From Vulcanisaeta sp. AZ3 (GTDB lineage: Archaea > Thermoproteota > Thermoprotei > Thermoproteales > Thermocladiaceae), in assembly GCA_000960865.2 (NCBI GenBank), contig JZWU02000005.1, forward strand, positions 1-64,000: 64,000 bases of DNA. The letters run 5' to 3'. This document shows, piece by piece, positions 14,051-30,842 of this stretch. How positions within the stretch are numbered: the first letter of the stretch is position 1; each line of letters opens with the position of its first letter. The position numbers and the translations under genes are program-made. The notes below the pieces were generated by a model, which was not told the origin of the DNA, did no database searches, and saw only the letters and a list, made by a program, of their open reading frames with translations.

Positions 14051-15232
14051 TTAAGGTTGCTGTGGAGAATATTTATTGCTCATCAAATCCCTTATTATTT
14101 GCTTAATATCTCCCTCGGTAATCCTAAAACCCGCATCACCTAATTCCTTAATTCTCTCTAGTATTTTATTTACTAAGACCTCGTGGGGCTCAATGCCCAT
14201 AGACCTAAGTACGAATTCTACAGAATGCCTACCACTATGCTTACCAATCACTATTTTACGGTTCATGCCAACACTCTCTGGACTTATTGGCTCATAAGTA
14301 ATCGGGTTGGATAACACACCATGTACGTGTATTCCAGATTCGTGAGAGAAGGCATTGGCACCAACAATGGCCTTATTCGGCGGCACTGGTATTTTAAACA
14401 ACCTAGATACCAAATCAGAGACTTCCTTTATCTTCTCGAACTTAATTCCAACGTTATAGTTTAACAGGAATTTCACGGCAGCTGCAATCTCCTCAAGTGC
14501 CGCATTACCAGCTCTCTCCCCAACACCGTTTATTGTACCATGCACTTGATCAGCCCCAGCCTCTATAGCTGTCACGCTATTGGCAACTGCCATTCCGAAG
14601 TCATCATGACAATGAACACTCAATAAATAATCACCCTTAACATTCTCCTTGACAAAACTAACAAGCCAAGCCATCTTACTCGGCCACATAACGCCCACCG
14701 TGTCGGCAATATCCAACCTATCAGCACCTGCATTAACAACCTCCTGGAAAACCCTTACGAGGAACTGCGGATCACTCCTAGTTGCATCCTCTGCACTAAA
14801 CTCCACAATCATACCATGAGACTTTGCGTATTCTACAGCTTCTACGGCGGTACTAACCACCTTCTCCCTATTCATCTTCAACTTATACTTCATGTGTATG
14901 TCTGATGTAGCTATGAAGATGTGTACAGCTCCAACGTCAGCATCAATGACCCTATTGATATCCTCTCTTCTCGTCCTAGCCAGAGCTATGACCTCGGTAT
15001 CAGTGACCTCCCTCGCTATATCCTTAACGGCCCTAAACTCACCATCGCTTACTATTGGAAAGCCAGCCTCTATTGAGTCAACACCCAACTCTTCAAGCTT
15101 AAGGGCTATGGCCAATTTATCCTCAGACCTCAGGGCAACACCAGGAGTTTGTTCGCCATCCCTTAGTGTCGTATCTAAGAACCTAACGTACCTACCACCT
15201 ACCGAACCCTGAACTACATTTTCCTGAGCAAT
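14051..15232 (-). CDS. leuA: 2-isopropylmalate synthase, short form without C-terminal regulatory domain; frame begins at ATT 15232
   Basis: DTTLRDGEQTPG lies upstream of the ORF-track start (15115); HCHDD, GERAGN and HESGIH motifs; adjacent to ilv/leu genes. Confidence 0.88.
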   Translation of the reverse strand: MAQENVVQGSVGGRYVRFLDTTLRDGEQTPGVALRSEDKLAIALKLEELGVDSIEAGFPIVSDGEFRAVKDIAREVTDTEVIALARTRREDINRVIDADVGAVHIFIATSDIHMKYKLKMNREKVVSTAVEAVEYAKSHGMIVEFSAEDATRSDPQFLVRVFQEVVNAGADRLDIADTVGVMWPSKMAWLVSFVKENVKGDYLLSVHCHDDFGMAVANSVTAIEAGADQVHGTINGVGERAGNAALEEIAAAVKFLLNYNVGIKFEKIKEVSDLVSRLFKIPVPPNKAIVGANAFSHESGIHVHGVLSNPITYEPISPESVGMNRKIVIGKHSGRHSVEFVLRSMGIEPHEVLVNKILERIKELGDAGFRITEGDIKQIIRDLMSNKYSPQQP

Positions 15233-15373
15233 CTATCCCACCAAACCTTAACTAAAAATACTCTATTTAAGCTTTATTCTAAGAGAAATATATTAATGAG
15301 AATCACGATAATAAACAATATATTTAGTTATGATGAAGAAAAACTTAAATATTCTATAGTTGACTTCCACCTG

Positions 15374-15400
15374 ATGAGGTGCTTTATTCTTTACGTATAA
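15374..15400 (+). promoter_or_regulatory. Putative ilv leader peptide MRCFILYV*
   Basis: ATG about 30 nt after the CTTAAATA TATA box; its 8 codons include Ile, Leu and Val. Confidence 0.65.
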
Positions 15401-15483
15401 GGGAAATAGAGAACGGAAATCAAAAGTCCACTCAATCAATGCCTCAGGAGAACATGAGTACAATTTGTGCCTAGGTGATCAAC

Positions 15484-17205
15484 ATGCCCCGAGCGGTTGA
15501 TTTATTAGTTAAAGAAATGGAGAGTATGGGCGTCGATAAGATTTTCGGTATAATAGGTGGGCAAATAATGCCATTCTATGATGCGCTGTATAATACCAAT
15601 ATTAAGGTCTACATGTTTAGACATGAACAAGGCGCAGTGCACGCTGCTGATGCCTATGGTAGAGTCACTAAGAGACCCATGACAGTGATAGTTACATCAG
15701 GACCGGGAGCAGCTAATCTCGTCACAGGGCTTGCTAATGCAATGATGGATTCGTCACCTCTAATAGCCATAACAGGGCAGGTACCTACGATCTTCTTTGG
15801 TAGGGATACGTTTCAAGAGACAGATATAGTGGGTACAACTATGCCAATAACTAAGCATACATTCATGGTTAAGAGACCAGAGGACCTTGTCCCGGCGTAT
15901 AAGGCCGCCTATGAGGTGAGTATTGATGGTAGGCCAGGCCCTGTGCTTATAGATATGCCGAGAGATGTTCAACTATCTGAAGTTAGTGAGAATTGTAGAA
16001 TGAGGATGATTAAGGTGTTTAAGATGGTTATACCTGAACCAGACCCATCACTCGTAGCCTATGCCCTTAAACTCTTACTCAATGCAGAGAGGCCTGTGAT
16101 GTTTGTGGGTGGTGGTGTTTGTTGGAGTGGTGCAACTAATGAGGTATTAACACTTGCTGAATTGATAGGAATGCCCATAGTCACCACATTACCCGGTAAG
16201 AATTGCGTGCCTAGTAATCATCCATTAGTAATGGGTCCGGCGGGCATGCATGGTAGGCTTGAGGCTGATGCTGCTTTGATAAATGCAGACGCGGTACTCG
16301 CCGTTGGTACTAGATTCAGTGATAGGACCGTGGGAAATTTCCAAGAGTTCAGTAGGGGTAGAAAAATTATTCACATAGATATTGACAAGAGCGAGATTGG
16401 GAAGAATGTAAAGCCTGATGTTGGTATTGTTGGCGATGCTAAGACTGTACTATCTATGATGATAGATATACTACCAAAAGCCCTAAAGAGAAGGCATGAG
16501 AAGTTTATAAGTTGGCTAAGGAGTATTAAGGAGGGCTTTGAAAAGTATAGGAATGAGCTGCCCTTCGAGGGATTCGCAGCATGGAGAATCTTGAAGGTTC
16601 TCCGTGAGGTTATACCACCCAATGCAATAACGGTAACTGGTGTAGGTAGTCACCAGATGTGGAGTGAACTTCATTGGGATGTTTATGTACCTGGTACCTT
16701 CATAACAAGCGCGGGCCTGGGTACAATGGGCTTTGGAATACCAGCCGCTCTAGGCGCAAAGATAGCTAGACCAGATGTTCCGGTGCTTGACATTGATGGT
16801 GATGGATCATTCCAAATGACATTGCAGAACTTAGCCCTAGTTCGTGAGTATAATTTACCAATAATAATCACGATATTTGATAACTCAGCGCTCATGCTGG
16901 TTAGGCATTGGCAGGTCATGCTTTATAGCAGGAGAATCATTGCAGTAGACTTTAACTTCAATCCAGACTTCATGAAGATCGCCGAGGCTTATGGCATAGA
17001 AGGCATTAGACCGGGTAGCTATGAGGAGTTAAGGGTTGCAGTAGCAAGGGCTGTTAGAAACAGTGAACCTCTCATAGTCGATGTAACTATCGATAGAGAA
17101 AAAGACCTTGTGCTTCCTTTCGTCCCTTCAGGTAAGTGGTTAGAGGAGGTAATAATGCCCGAGGGATTTCACGTAAATCTGAGGTATATGGGTGATGGAC
17201 AATGA
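15484..17205 (+). CDS. ilvB: Acetolactate synthase large subunit
   Basis: RHEQGA, TSGPG, FQE and GDGS TPP motifs; SD AGGTGA before ATG 15484. Confidence 0.93.
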   Translation: MPRAVDLLVKEMESMGVDKIFGIIGGQIMPFYDALYNTNIKVYMFRHEQGAVHAADAYGRVTKRPMTVIVTSGPGAANLVTGLANAMMDSSPLIAITGQVPTIFFGRDTFQETDIVGTTMPITKHTFMVKRPEDLVPAYKAAYEVSIDGRPGPVLIDMPRDVQLSEVSENCRMRMIKVFKMVIPEPDPSLVAYALKLLLNAERPVMFVGGGVCWSGATNEVLTLAELIGMPIVTTLPGKNCVPSNHPLVMGPAGMHGRLEADAALINADAVLAVGTRFSDRTVGNFQEFSRGRKIIHIDIDKSEIGKNVKPDVGIVGDAKTVLSMMIDILPKALKRRHEKFISWLRSIKEGFEKYRNELPFEGFAAWRILKVLREVIPPNAITVTGVGSHQMWSELHWDVYVPGTFITSAGLGTMGFGIPAALGAKIARPDVPVLDIDGDGSFQMTLQNLALVREYNLPIIITIFDNSALMLVRHWQVMLYSRRIIAVDFNFNPDFMKIAEAYGIEGIRPGSYEELRVAVARAVRNSEPLIVDVTIDREKDLVLPFVPSGKWLEEVIMPEGFHVNLRYMGDGQ

Positions 17206-28313: not shown

Positions 28314-29486
28314 ATGAGTAATGATTTACTTAGGTATGAGGATGAGTATTTAGCAAGGTACTATAATAAGAAACCAATAAGCATTATCAAGGGTAAAATG
28401 CAATACGTGTGGGACTTGAACGGTAATAAGTACTTAGATACTCACACAGGTTTTGGCGTTGCCTTCCTCGGCCATGCAAACCCAAGAATCGTGGAAGCAA
28501 TTAAAAGTCAACTGGATAGGATTCTCACAGTACCATTAACCTTCTATAACGATACAAGGGCTGAGTTTGTGAGGGAGTTCTCTAAAATATTACCTAATGG
28601 TTTTGGCAAAATATTTTTACAGAACAGTGGTACCGAGGCCGTAGAAGTAGCCCTTAAGATTGCAAGGAAAATCAGTAAGAAGACGGAGTTCCTTGCATTC
28701 CTAAACTCATTTCACGGGAGGACCCTTGGATCACTCTCAGTAACGGGGAATGAGAAGTATAGGAGAGCCTTTGAACCCTTACCTTACAAGGTTAGGTTTG
28801 CACCATTTAATGCCACTGATCAGGTGGACAAGTTAGTTACTGAAGACTTGGCGGCAGTTATTGTAGAACCAGTACAAGGTGAAGGTGGTGTGAACCCTGC
28901 CAAGCCTGAATTCCTTAAGGCTCTTAGACAGATTACTAAGGAGAGGAATGTACTCCTCATACTTGATGAGGTTCAAACAGGCTTTGGTAGGACAGGTAAT
29001 GTATGGGCATTTCAGGGTTATGGCATTGAGCCAGATATATTTACGGCAGGTAAATCAATAGCCGGAGGATTACCAATAGGCATTACCATAGTAAAAAGAG
29101 ACCTTGGTGATGTGTTTGAACCTGGTGAACATGGAAGTACCTTTGCTGGTAATCCATTGGTTATGACAGCCGCCAAAGCAGGTGTGGAAGTACTACTTAA
29201 CGAAAATGTTCCTGAAAGAGCTAGGTTCATTGGCGAGAGATTTATGAAGATTCTTGAGGATGAGGTGGGAAACGCGAAGCCTGTGCTGAGGGTTAAGGGT
29301 CTTGGTTTAATGCTAGGTATTGAGTTGAGGAAGAGAGCTGATCCGTATATTGATAGGTTAATAAGCATGGGTCTTCTTGCTAGTGTGGCTGGTGGTACCA
29401 CGATTAGGTTACTACCACCGTATTGCATTAATGATGATGATTTAAACCTAGCGGTAAATGCGTTGAAAGCTGTGTTAAGTGAGTGA
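28314..29486 (+). CDS. lysJ: LysW-lysine/ornithine aminotransferase (LysJ/ArgD)
   Basis: [25 protein letters not shown] and HGSTFAGNP motifs. Confidence 0.9.
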
Positions 29487-30842
29487 ACTAATTATATCAT
29501 GAACTATACCCATTAATTCCTCGTCACCCAATGGGTTCTTTCTTAATTCGTGGTCATAAAGCGACTTAACCTTATCATACACTACCTCCACTAATTCCTC
29601 ATTTACATTGAAACCATGAATCTTAAGCCAATGCTTAATTGATGACTTTCCAGAGTATGGCCCAATAACCATCTTAGGTTCGCGATCCACGAGACTTGGG
29701 TCCATTGATAAATACGTTATTGGATTCCTAAGTTGGGCATCAATATGTATGCCTGCCGCTGTGGTAAAGGCATTTTCACCAACGATGGGCTGATATGTGG
29801 GTACCTCATATCCCATTGACTTAAAGGTCTCTGCAATACTCCTAATAACCCTGGGATTCATACCATCAAACGAACCCTTAATTCGCGAATACCAAAGGAC
29901 AAGTGCCTCAATAGGCACATTCCCACTCCTCTCACCAATGCCCAACATAGTACCATTATTTATGGAGGCCCCATATAACCACGCAGCCACTGCATTAGCT
30001 ATTGCCATGTAATAATCGCCATGCCCATGAAACTCTATATTCGTACTCCGTATGTTAAGTACTCTCCTCAATACGTAGATTAATTTTGGTATACCATACG
30101 GCAGTGACACAAATGGATATGGAACACCTACACCCGTAGTATCGGGCAACTTAATAACTAAATCAACGCCATACCTCTCACTCAACCTTAGCAGCTTCTC
30201 TAAGAATGGTATTACGAAACCAACCACATCTGACCTGGTGATGTCCTCAAGACTACATCTAAGCCTTATCCCACTCCTTAAAGCGTACTCCGCGGCCTCT
30301 AAGTATTTAGCTATCACTCTATCTCTCGTGGAATTGAACTTATACTTAATGTGTATATCCGATATCGACATGAGCATTACCATCTCATCAAGTCCAGCCT
30401 CCTTAACTAACTTAACATCCTCAACCCTAGCTCTACCCCAACCAATAACCTGAGGCCATTCAAGGTCTAACTCCCTAACAGCCCTAACAAGCCTTCTATC
30501 TCTCTCTGTATATAGGAAGAACTCACTCTTAATTATTTTACCACTACCATTATCCAGCTCGGAAAGTAACCTAAAGAGTTTAATGGCATCCTCCACTGAG
30601 TAGTACGTATAGAAGGCTTGCTGACCGTCCCTAAAGGTAGTATCCGTTATATAGAGATTCTCAGGAACCTCAGGCTCTACGTAGATACCATCAAATAACA
30701 ACCTAGGCGGTAAAGGCCATTGATTTATTATCTCCTTAAATACAGAATCATCATTCACATAGTCAATGCCCTCCTTTCTAAGCAGTTTAATTAATTCCTC
30801 GGGTTCACTTCTATTACCAGGTGCTTCAATAGAGACCCCCAA
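29475..30842 (-). CDS. DRE-TIM acyl-CoA condensing enzyme (Re-citrate-synthase-like sequence), probably the homocitrate synthase
   Basis: DTTFRDGQQA, HGH, GERSGN and AGIH motifs; located in the Lys cluster. Confidence 0.7.
   Translation of the reverse strand: MGVSIEAPGNRSEPEELIKLLRKEGIDYVNDDSVFKEIINQWPLPPRLLFDGIYVEPEVPENLYITDTTFRDGQQAFYTYYSVEDAIKLFRLLSELDNGSGKIIKSEFFLYTERDRRLVRAVRELDLEWPQVIGWGRARVEDVKLVKEAGLDEMVMLMSISDIHIKYKFNSTRDRVIAKYLEAAEYALRSGIRLRCSLEDITRSDVVGFVIPFLEKLLRLSERYGVDLVIKLPDTTGVGVPYPFVSLPYGIPKLIYVLRRVLNIRSTNIEFHGHGDYYMAIANAVAAWLYGASINNGTMLGIGERSGNVPIEALVLWYSRIKGSFDGMNPRVIRSIAETFKSMGYEVPTYQPIVGENAFTTAAGIHIDAQLRNPITYLSMDPSLVDREPKMVIGPYSGKSSIKHWLKIHGFNVNEELVEVVYDKVKSLYDHELRKNPLGDEELMGIVHDIISSLT

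What the first reader, a model, noticed from the sequence alone, without database searches (positions are those of the whole stretch)
15214..15271. leuA: overlapping ATT/TTG start (ATTG) with Leu as second codon, a possible start-slippage switch
SEEN (minus strand): GGTGG-GATAG-ATTG-CTC-AGG-AAA-ATG-TAG. TTG 15231 opens a 5-codon ORF with Leu CTC at codon 2. The LeuA frame begins at ATT 15232, right after an in-frame TAG, and this is the only access to the catalytic DTTLRDGEQ motif. A mini-ORF GTG GGA TAG sits at the predicted transcription start. The enzyme lacks the Leu-binding regulatory domain. INFERENCE: initiator tRNA can sit on UUG or AUU (one mismatch each), and Leu-tRNA scarcity would favour the AUU-GCU frame.
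Basis: partly seen in the sequence, partly recalled or inferred. Interest (0 to 1): 0.82.

Follow-up and report, generated by a model that had tools for sequence, protein, structure and literature searches.

The report
Leucine-sensing start switch on leuA
The leucine-pathway gene leuA of this hot-spring archaeon has no normal start codon; it opens at an overlapping ATT/TTG pair followed by a leucine codon, a conserved layout that most likely lets the ribosome make the enzyme only when leucine is scarce.

Summary
Confirmed, and far from ordinary. On the minus strand the LeuA frame opens at ATT 15232 just after TAG. TTG 15231 opens a 5-codon +1-frame ORF whose second codon is CTC (Leu). The first canonical in-frame start (TTG 15115) lies after the catalytic motif. 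ATTGCT is invariant in 24 of 24 loci from four genera of the family, while the invariant catalytic motif varies freely at synonymous sites.

The sister family has another leader: a leaderless ATG ORF in the +1 frame running over G_GGG_CTC (28 of 28 loci). Its two paralogs use the same G_GGG site with a different next codon. Citramalate synthase (isoleucine) has ATT/ATC in 14 of 14 loci. Homocitrate synthase (lysine) has AAA in 14 of 14 loci.

In this window a lysine-cluster paralog carries ATTG+AAG (Lys), found in 11 of 11 relatives. ilvB has a leaderless leader peptide, MRCFILYV.

The codon after the shift-prone site thus tracks the pathway's end product. It is comparative evidence only; no experiment exists. 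I found no description in print. GenBank notes a 'possible unusual start codon' on the Pyrobaculum aerophilum protein.

The parts
15264..15271 (-). TATA-like box CTTAAATA of the leuA promoter
   Evidence: Sequence. It is conserved in the genus. A 22-nt spacer separates it from GTG 15241, within the genome-wide peak of 21-24 nt.
15238..15242 (-). GGTGG, a Shine-Dalgarno-like core
   Evidence: It is complementary to the 16S rRNA 3' end ...GGATCACCTCCT of a genome of the same genus. GGTG lies 6 nt before ATT and 7 nt before TTG. Seven nt is the genome-wide mode: at that spacing 41 ATG, 7 TTG and 4 GTG of 91.
15233..15241 (-). Mini-ORF GTG GGA TAG, in frame with LeuA, at the predicted transcript start
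   Evidence: GTG-NNN-TAG is kept in 14 of 15 loci of genera g1 and g2. One Caldivirga locus has TGG.
15230..15232 (-). ATT, the first codon of the LeuA frame and its proposed entry codon
   Evidence: Invariant in 24 of 24 family loci and never ATG. NCBI calls MAQ... proteins from this codon in three species of the genus.
15229..15231 (-). TTG, canonical start of the +1-frame uORF, overlapping ATT
   Evidence: It sits at the modal SD spacing.
15226..15228 (-). CTC, the Leu sensor codon (uORF codon 2). In the LeuA frame its first two bases end GCT.
   Evidence: CTC in 22 and CTT in 1 of 23 loci. Meanwhile the LeuA-frame codon 3 changes its amino acid (Q, R, P, L).
15214..15231 (-). uORF TTG CTC AGG AAA ATG TAG (M-L-R-K-M-stop)
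   Evidence: A short +1 ORF of 2-7 codons is present in 22 of 23 family loci.
15215..15217 (-). GTA in the LeuA frame, overlapped by the uORF stop (GTAG). It is the restart codon of the rival explanation.
   Evidence: The overlapped codon begins with a purine in 44 of 49 loci.
14051..15232 (-). LeuA (short 2-isopropylmalate-synthase-like enzyme): 393 codons plus stop
   Evidence: NCBIfam LEU1_arch 534 bits (cut-off 484.75) and IPMS_Sufob 527 bits (cut-off 600). Pfam PF00682 and PF22617 only. It is 76-85% identical to genus orthologs.
15149..15175 (-). Catalytic motif DTTLRDGEQ
   Evidence: It served as the synonymous-site control.
15113..15115 (-). TTG, the first canonical in-frame start, downstream of the catalytic motif
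30791..30830 (-). Second instance in this window. ATT 30830-30828 overlaps TTG 30829-30827, followed by AAG 30826-30824 (Lys). The uORF is MKHLVIEVNPRN-stop. It sits at the 5' end of the LeuA/HCS-family paralog (29475-30830) inside the lysJ-lysK-lysX-lysZ cluster.
   Evidence: ATTG plus a Lys codon is found in 11 of 11 loci of genera g1 and g2 (AAG in 10, AAA in 1).
15374..15400 (+). Leaderless leader peptide of the divergent ilvBNC genes: ATG AGG TGC TTT ATT CTT TAC GTA TAA (MRCFILYV). Its TATA box is at 15344-15351, 22 nt upstream.
   Evidence: It is conserved in 13 of 13 Vulcanisaeta and Caldivirga loci examined.

Best explanation
leuA is gated by a leucine-sensing choice of reading frame at its first codon. 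Ribosomes are loaded at the 5' end of a very short leader, which holds a GGUG Shine-Dalgarno core and/or the leaderless mini-ORF GUG GGA UAG. They place initiator tRNA on the canonical start UUG (15231), which puts CUC (Leu) in the A site. When Leu-tRNA(GAG) is plentiful, CUC is decoded. The ribosome then makes M-L-R-K-M and stops at 15216-14, so no enzyme is made. When Leu-tRNA is scarce, the A site stays empty and the initiator tRNA re-pairs one base upstream on AUU (15232). Each of the two codons has one mismatch with the initiator anticodon. GCU (Ala) is then decoded and the full 393-residue LeuA is made. This would replace the allosteric feedback that this short enzyme lacks. Shown here: the anatomy, its conservation, and the match between sensor codon and pathway in paralogs. 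Inferred: the transcript start, the slippage step itself, and the response to leucine.
For: (1) There is no canonical start before the catalytic motif in the window, in 7 of 9 tabulated genus loci, and in 13 of 23 family loci.
(2) ATTGCT is invariant in 24 of 24 loci from four genera. In the same 23 genes the invariant DTTLRDGEQ uses 2-6 synonymous codons per residue, and its Leu is CTC in only 1 of 23. The base after GCT stays C (T once) while the LeuA residue changes among Q, R, P and L, so the +1-frame Leu codon is the conserved item. ATT is never ATG, although ATG is one mutation away.
(3) TTG sits 7 nt after GGTG, the genome-wide mode. Near-cognate codons are not otherwise used at SD-anchored starts: ATT occurs once at spacing 6, which I take to be leuA itself, and GTA 0 times at spacing 7.
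(4) In the sister family (proteins named Pyrobaculum or Thermoproteus), the leader is a leaderless ATG ORF in the +1 frame running over G_GGG_CTC. This holds in 28 of 28 loci, and 22 of 28 have no canonical in-frame start downstream of that ATG.
(5) The paralogs of that family keep G_GGG but change the next codon. Citramalate synthase (TIGR00977, 629 bits against a cut-off of 450) has ATT/ATC in 14 of 14 loci, and 12 of 14 lack a canonical start. Homocitrate synthase (TIGR02146, 571 and 516 bits against 413.55) has AAA in 14 of 14 loci, and 14 of 14 lack a canonical start. The series is therefore Leu, Ile, Lys.
(6) In this window and its relatives, the lysine-cluster paralog has ATTG followed by AAG (10 loci) or AAA (1 locus), 11 of 11 in all.
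(7) ilvB, in the pathway common to Ile, Leu and Val, has a conserved leaderless leader peptide MRCFILYV in 13 of 13 loci.
(8) As a control, 19 of 20 long-type LeuA genes from other families have ordinary in-frame starts. The exception and a relative carry T_TTC_CTC.
(9) The motifs are unique to leuA in each genome.
Against: There is no experimental datum of any kind, and the transcript start is only predicted. If transcription starts at GTG 15241, the GGUG core is cut to GUG, and it is then unclear how the ribosome reaches UUG.
Re-pairing of an archaeal initiator tRNA from UUG to AUU is unprecedented to my knowledge.
Some relatives have ordinary alternatives. Four of 6 Caldivirga loci have ATG/GTG four codons after ATT, one has TGG in place of TAG, and 3 of 7 g4 loci have an upstream in-frame TTG.
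The LeuA-frame codon under the uORF stop begins with a purine in 44 of 49 loci, against about 55-60% expected from the codon usage. That hints at reinitiation.
The Sulfolobaceae leuA case is ambiguous: 8 of 12 loci have an in-frame GTG/TTG option. Their homocitrate synthase genes start normally in 5 of 5.
The Bathyarchaeia leaders (uORF MGYCFIE) have no Leu codon in the ATG frame.
Related genomes are not independent samples.
Confidence: 0.6

Rival explanations
1. Plain weak initiation at AUU. ATT 15232 is a constitutive near-cognate start placed by the SD. It keeps LeuA low, and the overlapping TTG-CTC ORF has no sensing role.
For: ATT lies 6 nt after GGTG, the same spacing as the SD-led ATG of ilvB. 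NCBI already calls MAQ... proteins from it. An Ile-Ala or Ile-Val pair near the N-terminus recurs in distant homologs that do have a normal start, for example MSIAP and MVLIAT.
Against: It does not explain the invariant third base of GCT, or the retained C after it while the residue changes. It does not explain the G_GGG designs, whose ATG lies in another frame. It does not explain why the codon after the site is Leu, Ile or Lys according to the pathway.
Confidence: 0.15
2. Termination-reinitiation. A short ORF is translated (TTG...TAG, or the mini-ORF GTG GGA TAG), and the terminating ribosome restarts on the overlapping or adjacent near-cognate codon. That codon would be GTA 15217 (GTAG) or ATT 15232 (TAG-ATT).
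For: The uORF stop overlaps ATG/GTG in 4 of 6 Caldivirga loci (ATGA, GTGA), and GTA/ATA elsewhere. The first base is a purine in 44 of 49 loci. Two loci of family f32 and the single family-f5 locus have SD + ATG/GTG GAA Leu ... stop overlapping ATA/GTA. A purine-rich AGGAGG-like run precedes GTA in the genus.
Against: The NTR form of that codon is forced by the frame geometry; only its first base is free. GUA pairs very poorly with initiator tRNA. Starving the uORF's Leu codon would lower LeuA output, which is the wrong sign. It gives no reason for ATT, for G before GGG, or for the Leu/Ile/Lys series. One g4 locus (L018) has no early uORF stop. The Asn/Asp-Val pair before and at the GTA position is conserved in the LeuA frame, even where the codon is GTT.
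Confidence: 0.12
3. Leaderless GUG start with read-through of UAG 15235-33, giving M-G-X-I-A-Q...
For: GTG sits at the modal leaderless distance from the TATA box. At that codon one Caldivirga locus has TGG (plus two more protein clusters beginning MVWIAQ), g4 has TAC/TAT, and an Ignisphaera homolog reads MGMSIAP in frame.
Against: TAG is an ordinary stop in this genome (109 of 630 long ORFs). g3 and g4 keep ATTGCTC without GTG...TAG. There is no role for the conserved CTC, and the model does not carry over to the G_GGG leaders.
Confidence: 0.05
4. The conserved block is a DNA or RNA binding site for a regulator, or a small RNA structure. The overlapping frames would then be incidental.
For: The block lies about +10 to +18 from the predicted transcript start in both families. 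A weak hairpin pairing GGGU with GCUC is predicted in 5 of 9 genus loci.
Against: The motif occurs once per genome and is not shared with leuB, leuCD or ilv. It is not palindromic. The predicted hairpins are weak and not conserved. This idea cannot explain the missing start codons or the amino-acid-specific codon series.
Confidence: 0.05
5. Assembly error or pseudogene in a metagenome-assembled genome.
For: The genome is a 55-contig assembly, 89.85% complete. Two relatives' copies are visibly damaged (L010 and L022).
Against: The same layout is present in three single-contig genomes of the genus and in every relative examined. The ORF is intact and 76-85% identical to orthologs.
Confidence: 0.01

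Closest known systems
RF2 (prfB) +1 programmed frameshift autoregulation in bacteria (recalled, not from a call)
   Same: A slow-to-decode A-site codon reports scarcity of its decoder. The P-site tRNA re-pairs in another frame. A short dead-end ORF competes with the full-length product. The result is negative feedback on the product's own pathway.
   Different: In RF2 the sensor is a stop codon read by the protein being made. Here it would be a sense codon read by an aminoacyl-tRNA, and the product is a biosynthetic enzyme. In this window the P-site tRNA would be the initiator and the shift would be -1.
Hungry-codon frameshifting (Gallant and co-workers); Ty1 CUU_AGG_C. Seen as passages of the review PMC5009743.
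   Same: It is the same elementary event: an empty A site at a starved or rare codon allows the P-site tRNA to realign by one base.
   Different: It is described as a laboratory or starvation error, or as a retroelement device. The passages seen in that review say it is unclear how far hungry-codon frameshifting occurs under natural conditions. Here it would be a conserved regulatory design on three pathway-entry enzymes.
Leader-peptide attenuation of bacterial leu, ilv, his and trp operons (recalled). Also the leaderless poly-Cys uORFs of mycobacteria (bioRxiv 10.1101/834739; listing and start of the abstract only).
   Same: A short ORF at the 5' end carries codons for the pathway's end product and senses charged tRNA through ribosome speed. 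The ilvB leader MRCFILYV in this window looks like a direct analogue.
   Different: Output there goes through alternative RNA hairpins, terminators or unmasking of a start site. At leuA the sensing ORF overlaps the enzyme ORF in another frame, and the output would be the frame itself. I found no conserved hairpin.
AUU start codon of infC (IF3) in E. coli (recalled)
   Same: A near-cognate AUU start is kept by selection because weak initiation is itself the regulated step.
   Different: infC senses IF3 fidelity, not an amino acid. It has no overlapping canonical start and no sensor codon.
Termination-reinitiation coupling at overlapping stop/start (ATGA) gene pairs in archaea and bacteria (recalled)
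   Same: The uORF stop overlaps a start-like codon by the same four-base geometry.
   Different: Here most of the 'restart' codons are GTA or ATA, and the geometry is forced by the +1 frame. See the rival explanation.

Membership tests
2-isopropylmalate synthase (LeuA), short archaeal form | HMGL-like TIM-barrel catalytic domain with the DTTLRDGEQ motif | tested here: met
   PF00682 at 305 bits over residues 16-275. The motif is at 15175-15149.
2-isopropylmalate synthase (LeuA), short archaeal form | Score above a curated family cut-off | tested here: inconclusive
   The subfamily model LEU1_arch scores 534 bits against 484.75, so it is met. The equivalog IPMS_Sufob scores 527 bits against 600, so it is not met. 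The assignment to leucine rests on three things: the neighbours (leuB, ilvBNC, leuC/D-like), the paralogs being citramalate and homocitrate synthases, and the Leu codon in the leader.
2-isopropylmalate synthase (LeuA), short archaeal form | Absence of the C-terminal LeuA allosteric (dimerisation) domain PF08502 | tested here: met
   Only PF00682 and PF22617 are found. Long homologs in the searches carry PF08502.
   Window. Sister family: 22 of 28 IPMS-like, 12 of 14 CimA and 14 of 14 HCS loci lack a canonical in-frame start.
Regulatory programmed ribosomal frameshifting / frame selection | A conserved shift-prone site where the P-site tRNA can re-pair in the new frame | tested here: met
   A_TTG in 24 of 24 loci. 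G_GGG in 56 of 56 loci of the sister family. T_TTC in 2 of 2 loci of family f44.
Regulatory programmed ribosomal frameshifting / frame selection | A slow-to-decode A-site codon that carries the regulatory signal | tested here: met
   By sequence only. The codon is CTC/CTT (Leu), ATT/ATC (Ile) or AAA/AAG (Lys), matching the pathway. Slow decoding itself was not measured.
Regulatory programmed ribosomal frameshifting / frame selection | A trans-frame (or AUU-initiated) protein product, and its dependence on the signal | not testable with these tools
   No proteomic or ribosome-profiling data could be reached. RNA contigs of a Sulfolobus relative show only that RNA and DNA are colinear.
Leader-peptide transcription or translation attenuation | A short 5' ORF enriched in codons of the regulating amino acid | tested here: met
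   The leuA uORF M-L-R-K-M has Leu at codon 2. The ilvB leader is M-R-C-F-I-L-Y-V.
Leader-peptide transcription or translation attenuation | Mutually exclusive RNA structures or a terminator downstream of the leader ORF | tested here: not met
   Single-sequence folds of 23 leuA leaders and 12 ilvB leaders show no conserved structure. At leuA the uORF overlaps the enzyme ORF, which leaves no room for one.
Near-cognate (AUU) initiation | AUU at the start-codon distance from a Shine-Dalgarno sequence, conserved and never replaced by AUG | tested here: met
   GGTG + 6 nt. ATT in 24 of 24 loci.

The most novel reading that the evidence does not exclude
Thermoproteota may carry a so far undescribed class of amino-acid sensors, which I call 'sensor-codon' recoding switches. 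The first enzyme of each branch pathway would be translated only after a one-base change of frame. These enzymes are isopropylmalate synthase (Leu), citramalate synthase (Ile) and homocitrate synthase (Lys). The frame change would happen at a shift-prone P-site codon (G_GGG, A_UUG at initiation, U_UUC, NAA_A, NUU_C) when the next codon, which always codes for the pathway's own end product, is starved of charged tRNA. With the ILV-rich leaderless ilvB leader peptide, this would be the archaeal counterpart of bacterial attenuation, built from frameshifting instead of RNA hairpins.
Probability: 0.6. Interest if true: 0.95.

Novelty: new variant of a known kind. Interest (0 to 1): 0.9.

Why it matters
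How archaea match amino-acid synthesis to supply after transcription is largely unknown. My searches found no archaeal equivalent of bacterial attenuation in print. If this reading is right, a single codon placed after a slippery site is enough to sense one amino acid. The same module has been re-targeted to leucine, isoleucine and lysine simply by changing that codon. This would be the first natural use of hungry-codon frameshifting as a metabolic regulator. It would also be a new case of regulated start-frame choice by an initiator tRNA.

It also explains a long-standing annotation mess. The same gene is called with ATT, ATA, GTG or far-downstream starts. It is labelled 'possible unusual start codon' in GenBank and is joined across frames in Swiss-Prot.

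Sulfolobus acidocaldarius, which I recall to be genetically tractable, carries comparable leuA and cimA leaders. The hypothesis is therefore directly testable.

Tried and rejected
RNA structure: single-sequence folds of 23 leuA leaders and 12 ilvB leaders gave only weak, non-conserved hairpins. I dropped this line.

In-frame stop test: counting stops in the LeuA frame against the third frame between ATT and the uORF stop gave 0 against 2 in 121 codons. That is uninformative.

Codon use inside leuA: 24% of Leu codons are CTY against 33% genome-wide, and Leu makes up 25 of 393 residues. The numbers are too small to mean anything.

RNA data: contigs of 4 RNA runs from 4 studies cover the leader of a Sulfolobus relative (L063) with 0 differences and 0 gaps. 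There is thus no sign of RNA-level base insertion. Contigs cannot show a transcript start or expression.

TATA calibration: the first pattern was mis-registered and missed CTTAAATA. I redid it with YTTAWATA. Calibration on the few flanking genes of relatives' loci had too few cases.

16S 3' end: it is not assembled in this genome, so I took it from a genome of the same genus.

Sulfolobaceae leuA: I first read it as lacking any start. I corrected this after seeing NCBI's MGCLFS.../MFSTRR... proteins. Eight of 12 loci have an in-frame GTG/TTG, so the case is ambiguous.

Bathyarchaeia leaders: 15 loci carry a conserved SD-led uORF, M-G-Y-C-F-I-E. I first guessed that the enzyme is citramalate synthase, but it scores as the isopropylmalate synthase subfamily. 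This remains unexplained.

Supplementary files of papers, such as transcript-start tables for Sulfolobus, could not be seen and may bear on the transcript start.

Literature: searches, and look-ups, found nothing on a frameshift, an ATT start or a leader peptide for archaeal leuA, cimA or homocitrate synthase.
Full report
OBSERVATION. On the minus strand the window reads CTTAAATA (15271-15264), then 22 nt, then GTG GGA TAG (15241-15233), then ATT GCT CAG GAA AAT GTA GTT.... ATT 15232 opens a 393-codon frame that ends at 14051. That frame holds DTTLRDGEQ at 15175-15149. No ATG, GTG or TTG lies between the TAG and the motif, so the ORF listing reports only a 354-aa ORF from TTG 15115. One base downstream of ATT, TTG 15231 opens TTG CTC AGG AAA ATG TAG, which ends at 15214. 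The protein scores as an archaeal isopropylmalate/citramalate/homocitrate synthase: LEU1_arch 534 bits against a cut-off of 484.75, and IPMS_Sufob 527 bits against 600. It has HMGL-like and HCS_D2 domains and no PF08502 regulatory domain. Its neighbours are leuB and the divergent ilvB-ilvN-ilvC.

IS IT REAL? The assembly has 55 contigs and is 89.85% complete. Protein names place it in Vulcanisaeta. I tabulated orthologs from 40 relatives and from the rest of the class. All 23 loci of the family have ATTGCT at the head of the LeuA frame: 9 from g1, 6 from g2 (named Caldivirga), 1 from g3 and 7 from g4. A tenth g1 locus with a damaged gene body has the same leader. The +1-frame codon after TTG is CTC in 22 loci and CTT in 1. 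Seven of 9 g1 loci, and 13 of 23 family loci, have no canonical start between the upstream in-frame stop and the motif.

As an internal control, the invariant residues of DTTLRDGEQ use 2-6 synonymous codons each in these same genes. The motif's Leu uses six codons and is CTC in 1 of 23. The invariance of the third bases of ATT and GCT is therefore a constraint at the nucleotide level. The base after GCT stays C while the LeuA residue changes (CAG/CAA Q, CGA R, CCT P). The one T (TTA, Leu in the LeuA frame) still gives a Leu codon, CTT, in the +1 frame. What is kept is the +1-frame Leu codon. ATT is never ATG. The 17-mer GGTGGNNTAGATTGCTC occurs once per genome, at leuA, in 5 of 5 genomes, with no control hits.

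HOW RIBOSOMES ARRIVE. The 16S rRNA 3' end of a genome of the same genus is ...GGATCACCTCCT, so GGTG is a Shine-Dalgarno core. Genome-wide, the spacing from GGTG to an SD-anchored start peaks at 7 nt, where there are 41 ATG, 7 TTG and 4 GTG of 91. At leuA, TTG lies at 7 nt and ATT at 6 nt. The SD-led ATG of ilvB (15484) also lies at 6 nt. ATT and GTA are not otherwise used at such sites.

The spacer from a YTTAWATA box to the first start codon peaks at 21-24 nt in this genome. GTG 15241 lies at 22 nt, so the transcript probably begins at or next to it and the leader is only about 9 nt long. Whether the ribosome uses the truncated SD, the 5'-terminal GUG mini-ORF, or both cannot be decided from sequence.

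THE SISTER FAMILY. In family f2, whose proteins are named Pyrobaculum or Thermoproteus, the leader looks quite different but follows the same logic. A TATA box lies 16-20 nt upstream as scored. Then comes ATG NNN [T/A]CG GGG CTC, followed by 2-3 codons and a stop. All of this is in the +1 frame relative to the enzyme, whose own frame reads ...GGG GCT CGN... This holds in 28 of 28 loci (27, plus L043). In 22 of 28 the enzyme frame has no canonical start downstream of that ATG. The nine bases CGGGGCTCG are invariant. A tRNA-Gly on GGG can re-pair perfectly one base back on G_GG. The next codon is CTC (Leu) in the ATG frame and GCT in the enzyme frame.

THE DECISIVE COMPARISON. These genomes have two paralogs. 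One is citramalate synthase, the entry to the pyruvate route to isoleucine. It scores 629 bits on TIGR00977 against a cut-off of 450; the copy in the window's own genome scores 619. The other is homocitrate synthase, the entry to lysine. It scores 571 and 516 bits on TIGR02146 against 413.55. Both carry the same leaderless ATG...G_GGG design, in the +1 frame.

In citramalate synthase the codon after GGG is ATT or ATC (Ile) in 14 of 14 loci, and 12 of 14 have no canonical in-frame start. In homocitrate synthase that codon is AAA (Lys) in 14 of 14 loci, and 14 of 14 have no canonical in-frame start. Three enzymes thus share one slippery site, and the codon that follows it names the end product of each pathway.

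THE SAME LOGIC IN THIS WINDOW. A divergent LeuA/HCS-family gene lies at 29475-30830 on the minus strand; no equivalog model passes for it. It sits between lysJ and lysK-lysX-lysZ. It begins ...TCT ATT GAA GCA, that is A_TTG_AAG, with a +1-frame ORF MKHLVIEVNPRN. ATTG followed by a Lys codon is present in 11 of 11 loci of g1 and g2. Ten have AAG. One has AAA, which is synonymous in the +1 frame but not in the enzyme frame. Five of the 10 loci tabulated have no canonical start upstream of ATT. In this family, citramalate synthase shows a conserved [G/C]AA_ATC inside an out-of-frame leaderless ORF. The enzyme frame follows a TAG in 10 of 12 g1 and g2 loci and would be reached by a +1 step. The same GAA ATC is kept in 5 of 5 Sulfolobaceae genomes.

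Between leuA and ilvB there is also a TATA box at 15344-15351. After 22 nt comes ATG AGG TGC TTT ATT CTT TAC GTA TAA (15374-15400), which encodes MRCFILYV. This is conserved in 9 of 9 Vulcanisaeta and 4 of 4 Caldivirga loci examined. It is a leader peptide carrying Ile, Leu and Val codons in front of the genes common to those three amino acids.

MECHANISM. The simplest account covering all of this is a hungry-codon change of frame. When the charged tRNA for the sensor codon is scarce, the A site stays empty. The P-site tRNA then realigns by one base, and translation continues in the enzyme frame. When that tRNA is plentiful, the short ORF is read and terminated. In the window the P-site tRNA is the initiator. 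tRNA-Leu(GAG) is encoded in the genome, and CTC makes up 12.9% of Leu codons. The sign of the regulation is right, and it would substitute for the missing allosteric domain. I put this at 0.6 for the window. The general sensor-codon idea stands higher for the G_GGG leaders.

RIVALS. Plain AUU initiation (0.15) explains ATT and the conserved Ile-Ala N-terminus of homologs. It does not explain the conserved T and C of GCT-C, nor the paralog series.

Termination-reinitiation (0.12) draws on the stop/start overlap: ATGA or GTGA in 4 of 6 Caldivirga loci, and GTAG, ATAG or GTAA elsewhere, with a purine first base in 44 of 49 loci. However, the NTR shape of that codon is forced by the frame, GUA is a very poor partner for initiator tRNA, and starvation would act with the wrong sign.

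Leaderless GUG with UAG read-through (0.05) fits the TATA spacing and the TGG/TAC variants. It fails in g3 and g4 and ignores CTC. A protein- or RNA-binding motif (0.05) and an assembly artefact (0.01) are contradicted.

LIMITS AND COUNTER-EVIDENCE. Nothing here is experimental. Related genomes share ancestry, so the counts overstate independence. The strength of the argument lies in different codons at homologous sites of paralogs, and in different slippery sites across families.

Some lineages have ordinary alternatives. Ignisphaera-like and Ignicoccus-like genes have an in-frame ATG/GTG two to three codons before ATT. Eight of 12 Sulfolobaceae leuA loci have an in-frame GTG/TTG, although all 12 keep an ATG Ser [Ile/Val/Phe] CT[C/T] short ORF in another frame. 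Sulfolobaceae homocitrate synthase starts normally in 5 of 5.

Among 20 long-type LeuA genes of other families, 19 have ordinary starts. The exception and a relative carry GTG TCT (TTT/CTT) TTC CTC, that is T_TTC_CTC.

Fifteen Bathyarchaeia loci have a conserved SD-led ORF, M-G-Y-C-F-I-E, overlapping an isopropylmalate-synthase-subfamily gene. That gene lacks a canonical start in 6 of the 15. The ORF has no Leu codon in the ATG frame. I cannot explain this.

RNA contigs from four studies are colinear with the DNA of a Sulfolobus leader. This argues against RNA-level insertion there, but it says nothing about transcript starts.

WHAT IS KNOWN. GenBank names the Pyrobaculum aerophilum protein '2-isopropylmalate synthase (leuA) with possible unusual start codon'. 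The Swiss-Prot entry of that species begins MASGLVQIKIFDTT, which is the short-ORF peptide joined to the enzyme frame. RefSeq calls MKIFDTT from ATA. In Vulcanisaeta, NCBI starts the protein at ATT in three species and elsewhere in others. So the anomaly has been noticed gene by gene.

I found no paper that describes its conservation, the paralog series or a regulatory reading. I saw two reviews of recoding as passages only. PMC5009743 has 0 occurrences of 'isopropylmalate', and the passages seen say it is unclear how far hungry-codon frameshifting occurs under natural conditions. PMC8211752, on archaea, has 0 occurrences each of isopropylmalate, homocitrate, citramalate, Pyrobaculum and leucine. 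The closest known systems are listed in the Closest known systems section: RF2 autoregulation, hungry-codon shifting and Ty1, bacterial leader peptides, and the infC AUU start.

VERDICT. The finding is a new variant of known kinds, regulatory recoding and leader-peptide sensing. It is of high interest and directly testable.

Noticed in passing
window 15344-15400 (+): ilvB-ilvN-ilvC is preceded by a leaderless leader peptide, ATG AGG TGC TTT ATT CTT TAC GTA TAA (MRCFILYV). Its TATA box lies 22 nt upstream, and the peptide ends 83 nt before the SD-led ilvB ATG at 15484. It is conserved in 13 of 13 Vulcanisaeta and Caldivirga loci. Genus g4 has a different conserved uORF, MSLLCPI.... I could not establish a downstream structure.
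   Followed up: partly
window 29475-30842 (-): A divergent LeuA/HCS-family paralog lies inside the lysJ/lysK/lysX/lysZ cluster. It begins with overlapping ATT/TTG followed by AAG (Lys). The +1 uORF MKHLVIEVNPRN ends at 30791. ATTG plus a Lys codon is found in 11 of 11 relatives. In this genome an in-frame TTG at 30842 also exists.
   Followed up: yes
G000:C12:38390-38410 (L002) and L189-L214: Citramalate synthase leaders. This genome has a leaderless ATG TGG GAG ATT ATG TAG (MWEIM) overlapping an in-frame GTG. Other Vulcanisaeta and Caldivirga have ATG...GAA ATC... out of frame, with the enzyme frame behind a TAG. Pyrobaculum and Thermoproteus have ATG [C/T]CG GGG AT[T/C] in 14 of 14 loci.
   Followed up: yes
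L215-L228: Homocitrate synthase of the Pyrobaculum/Thermoproteus family: ATG NNN NNG GGG AAA in the +1 frame in 14 of 14 loci, and no canonical start in the enzyme frame in 14 of 14.
   Followed up: yes
L063-L070, L073-L075, L097; L257-L261; L247-L251: Sulfolobaceae. leuA carries ATG [AGT/TCT/TCA/CGT] [ATT/GTT/TTT] CT[C/T] (M-S-I/V/F-L) in a frame one base off the enzyme frame, in 12 of 12 loci; Ser is encoded by both codon families. Eight of the 12 also have an in-frame GTG/TTG. cimA carries ATG..GAA ATC.. (MSGVYEIC) in 5 of 5 genomes. Homocitrate synthase starts normally in 5 of 5.
   Followed up: partly
L140, L145, L150, L151, L157, L161, L165-L167, L169, L171, L175, L176, L183, L188: Bathyarchaeia isopropylmalate-synthase-subfamily genes carry a conserved SD-led uORF, ATG GGG TAT [T/C/A]GC TTT AT[C/T] GA. 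TA. (MGYCFIE), in another frame. Six of the 15 lack any canonical in-frame start. The uORF has no Leu codon. Unexplained.
   Followed up: partly
L087, L096: Two genomes of family f44 have GTG TCT (TTT/CTT) TTC CTC in the +1 frame of a long-type LeuA that has no canonical start. This is a T_TTC_CTC site.
   Followed up: no
L071, L072 (family f32); L041 (family f5): SD + ATG/GTG GAA CTC GC. TAA (MELA), or ATG GAA TTG... (MELVHVE), in the +1 frame, with the stop overlapping ATA/GTA of the enzyme frame. Re-pairing GAA to GGA would need a G-U pair at the middle position.
   Followed up: no
proteins P0002-P0031, P0121-P0202, P0235-P0299: Public annotations of this one gene family start at ATT, ATA, GTG, upstream codons inside the promoter, or far downstream; the truncated forms of 330-368 aa lack the catalytic motif. 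GenBank flags a 'possible unusual start codon', and Swiss-Prot joins the two frames.
   Followed up: partly
window 15475-15486 (+): the ORF listing starts ilvB at GTG 15475. That GTG lies inside the perfect SD AGGTGATC. The likely start is ATG 15484, three bases after GATC.
   Followed up: no
L010, L022: The leuA copies of two incomplete genomes of the same genus have frameshifts or TGA codons in the gene body but an intact leader. These are probably assembly errors.
   Followed up: no
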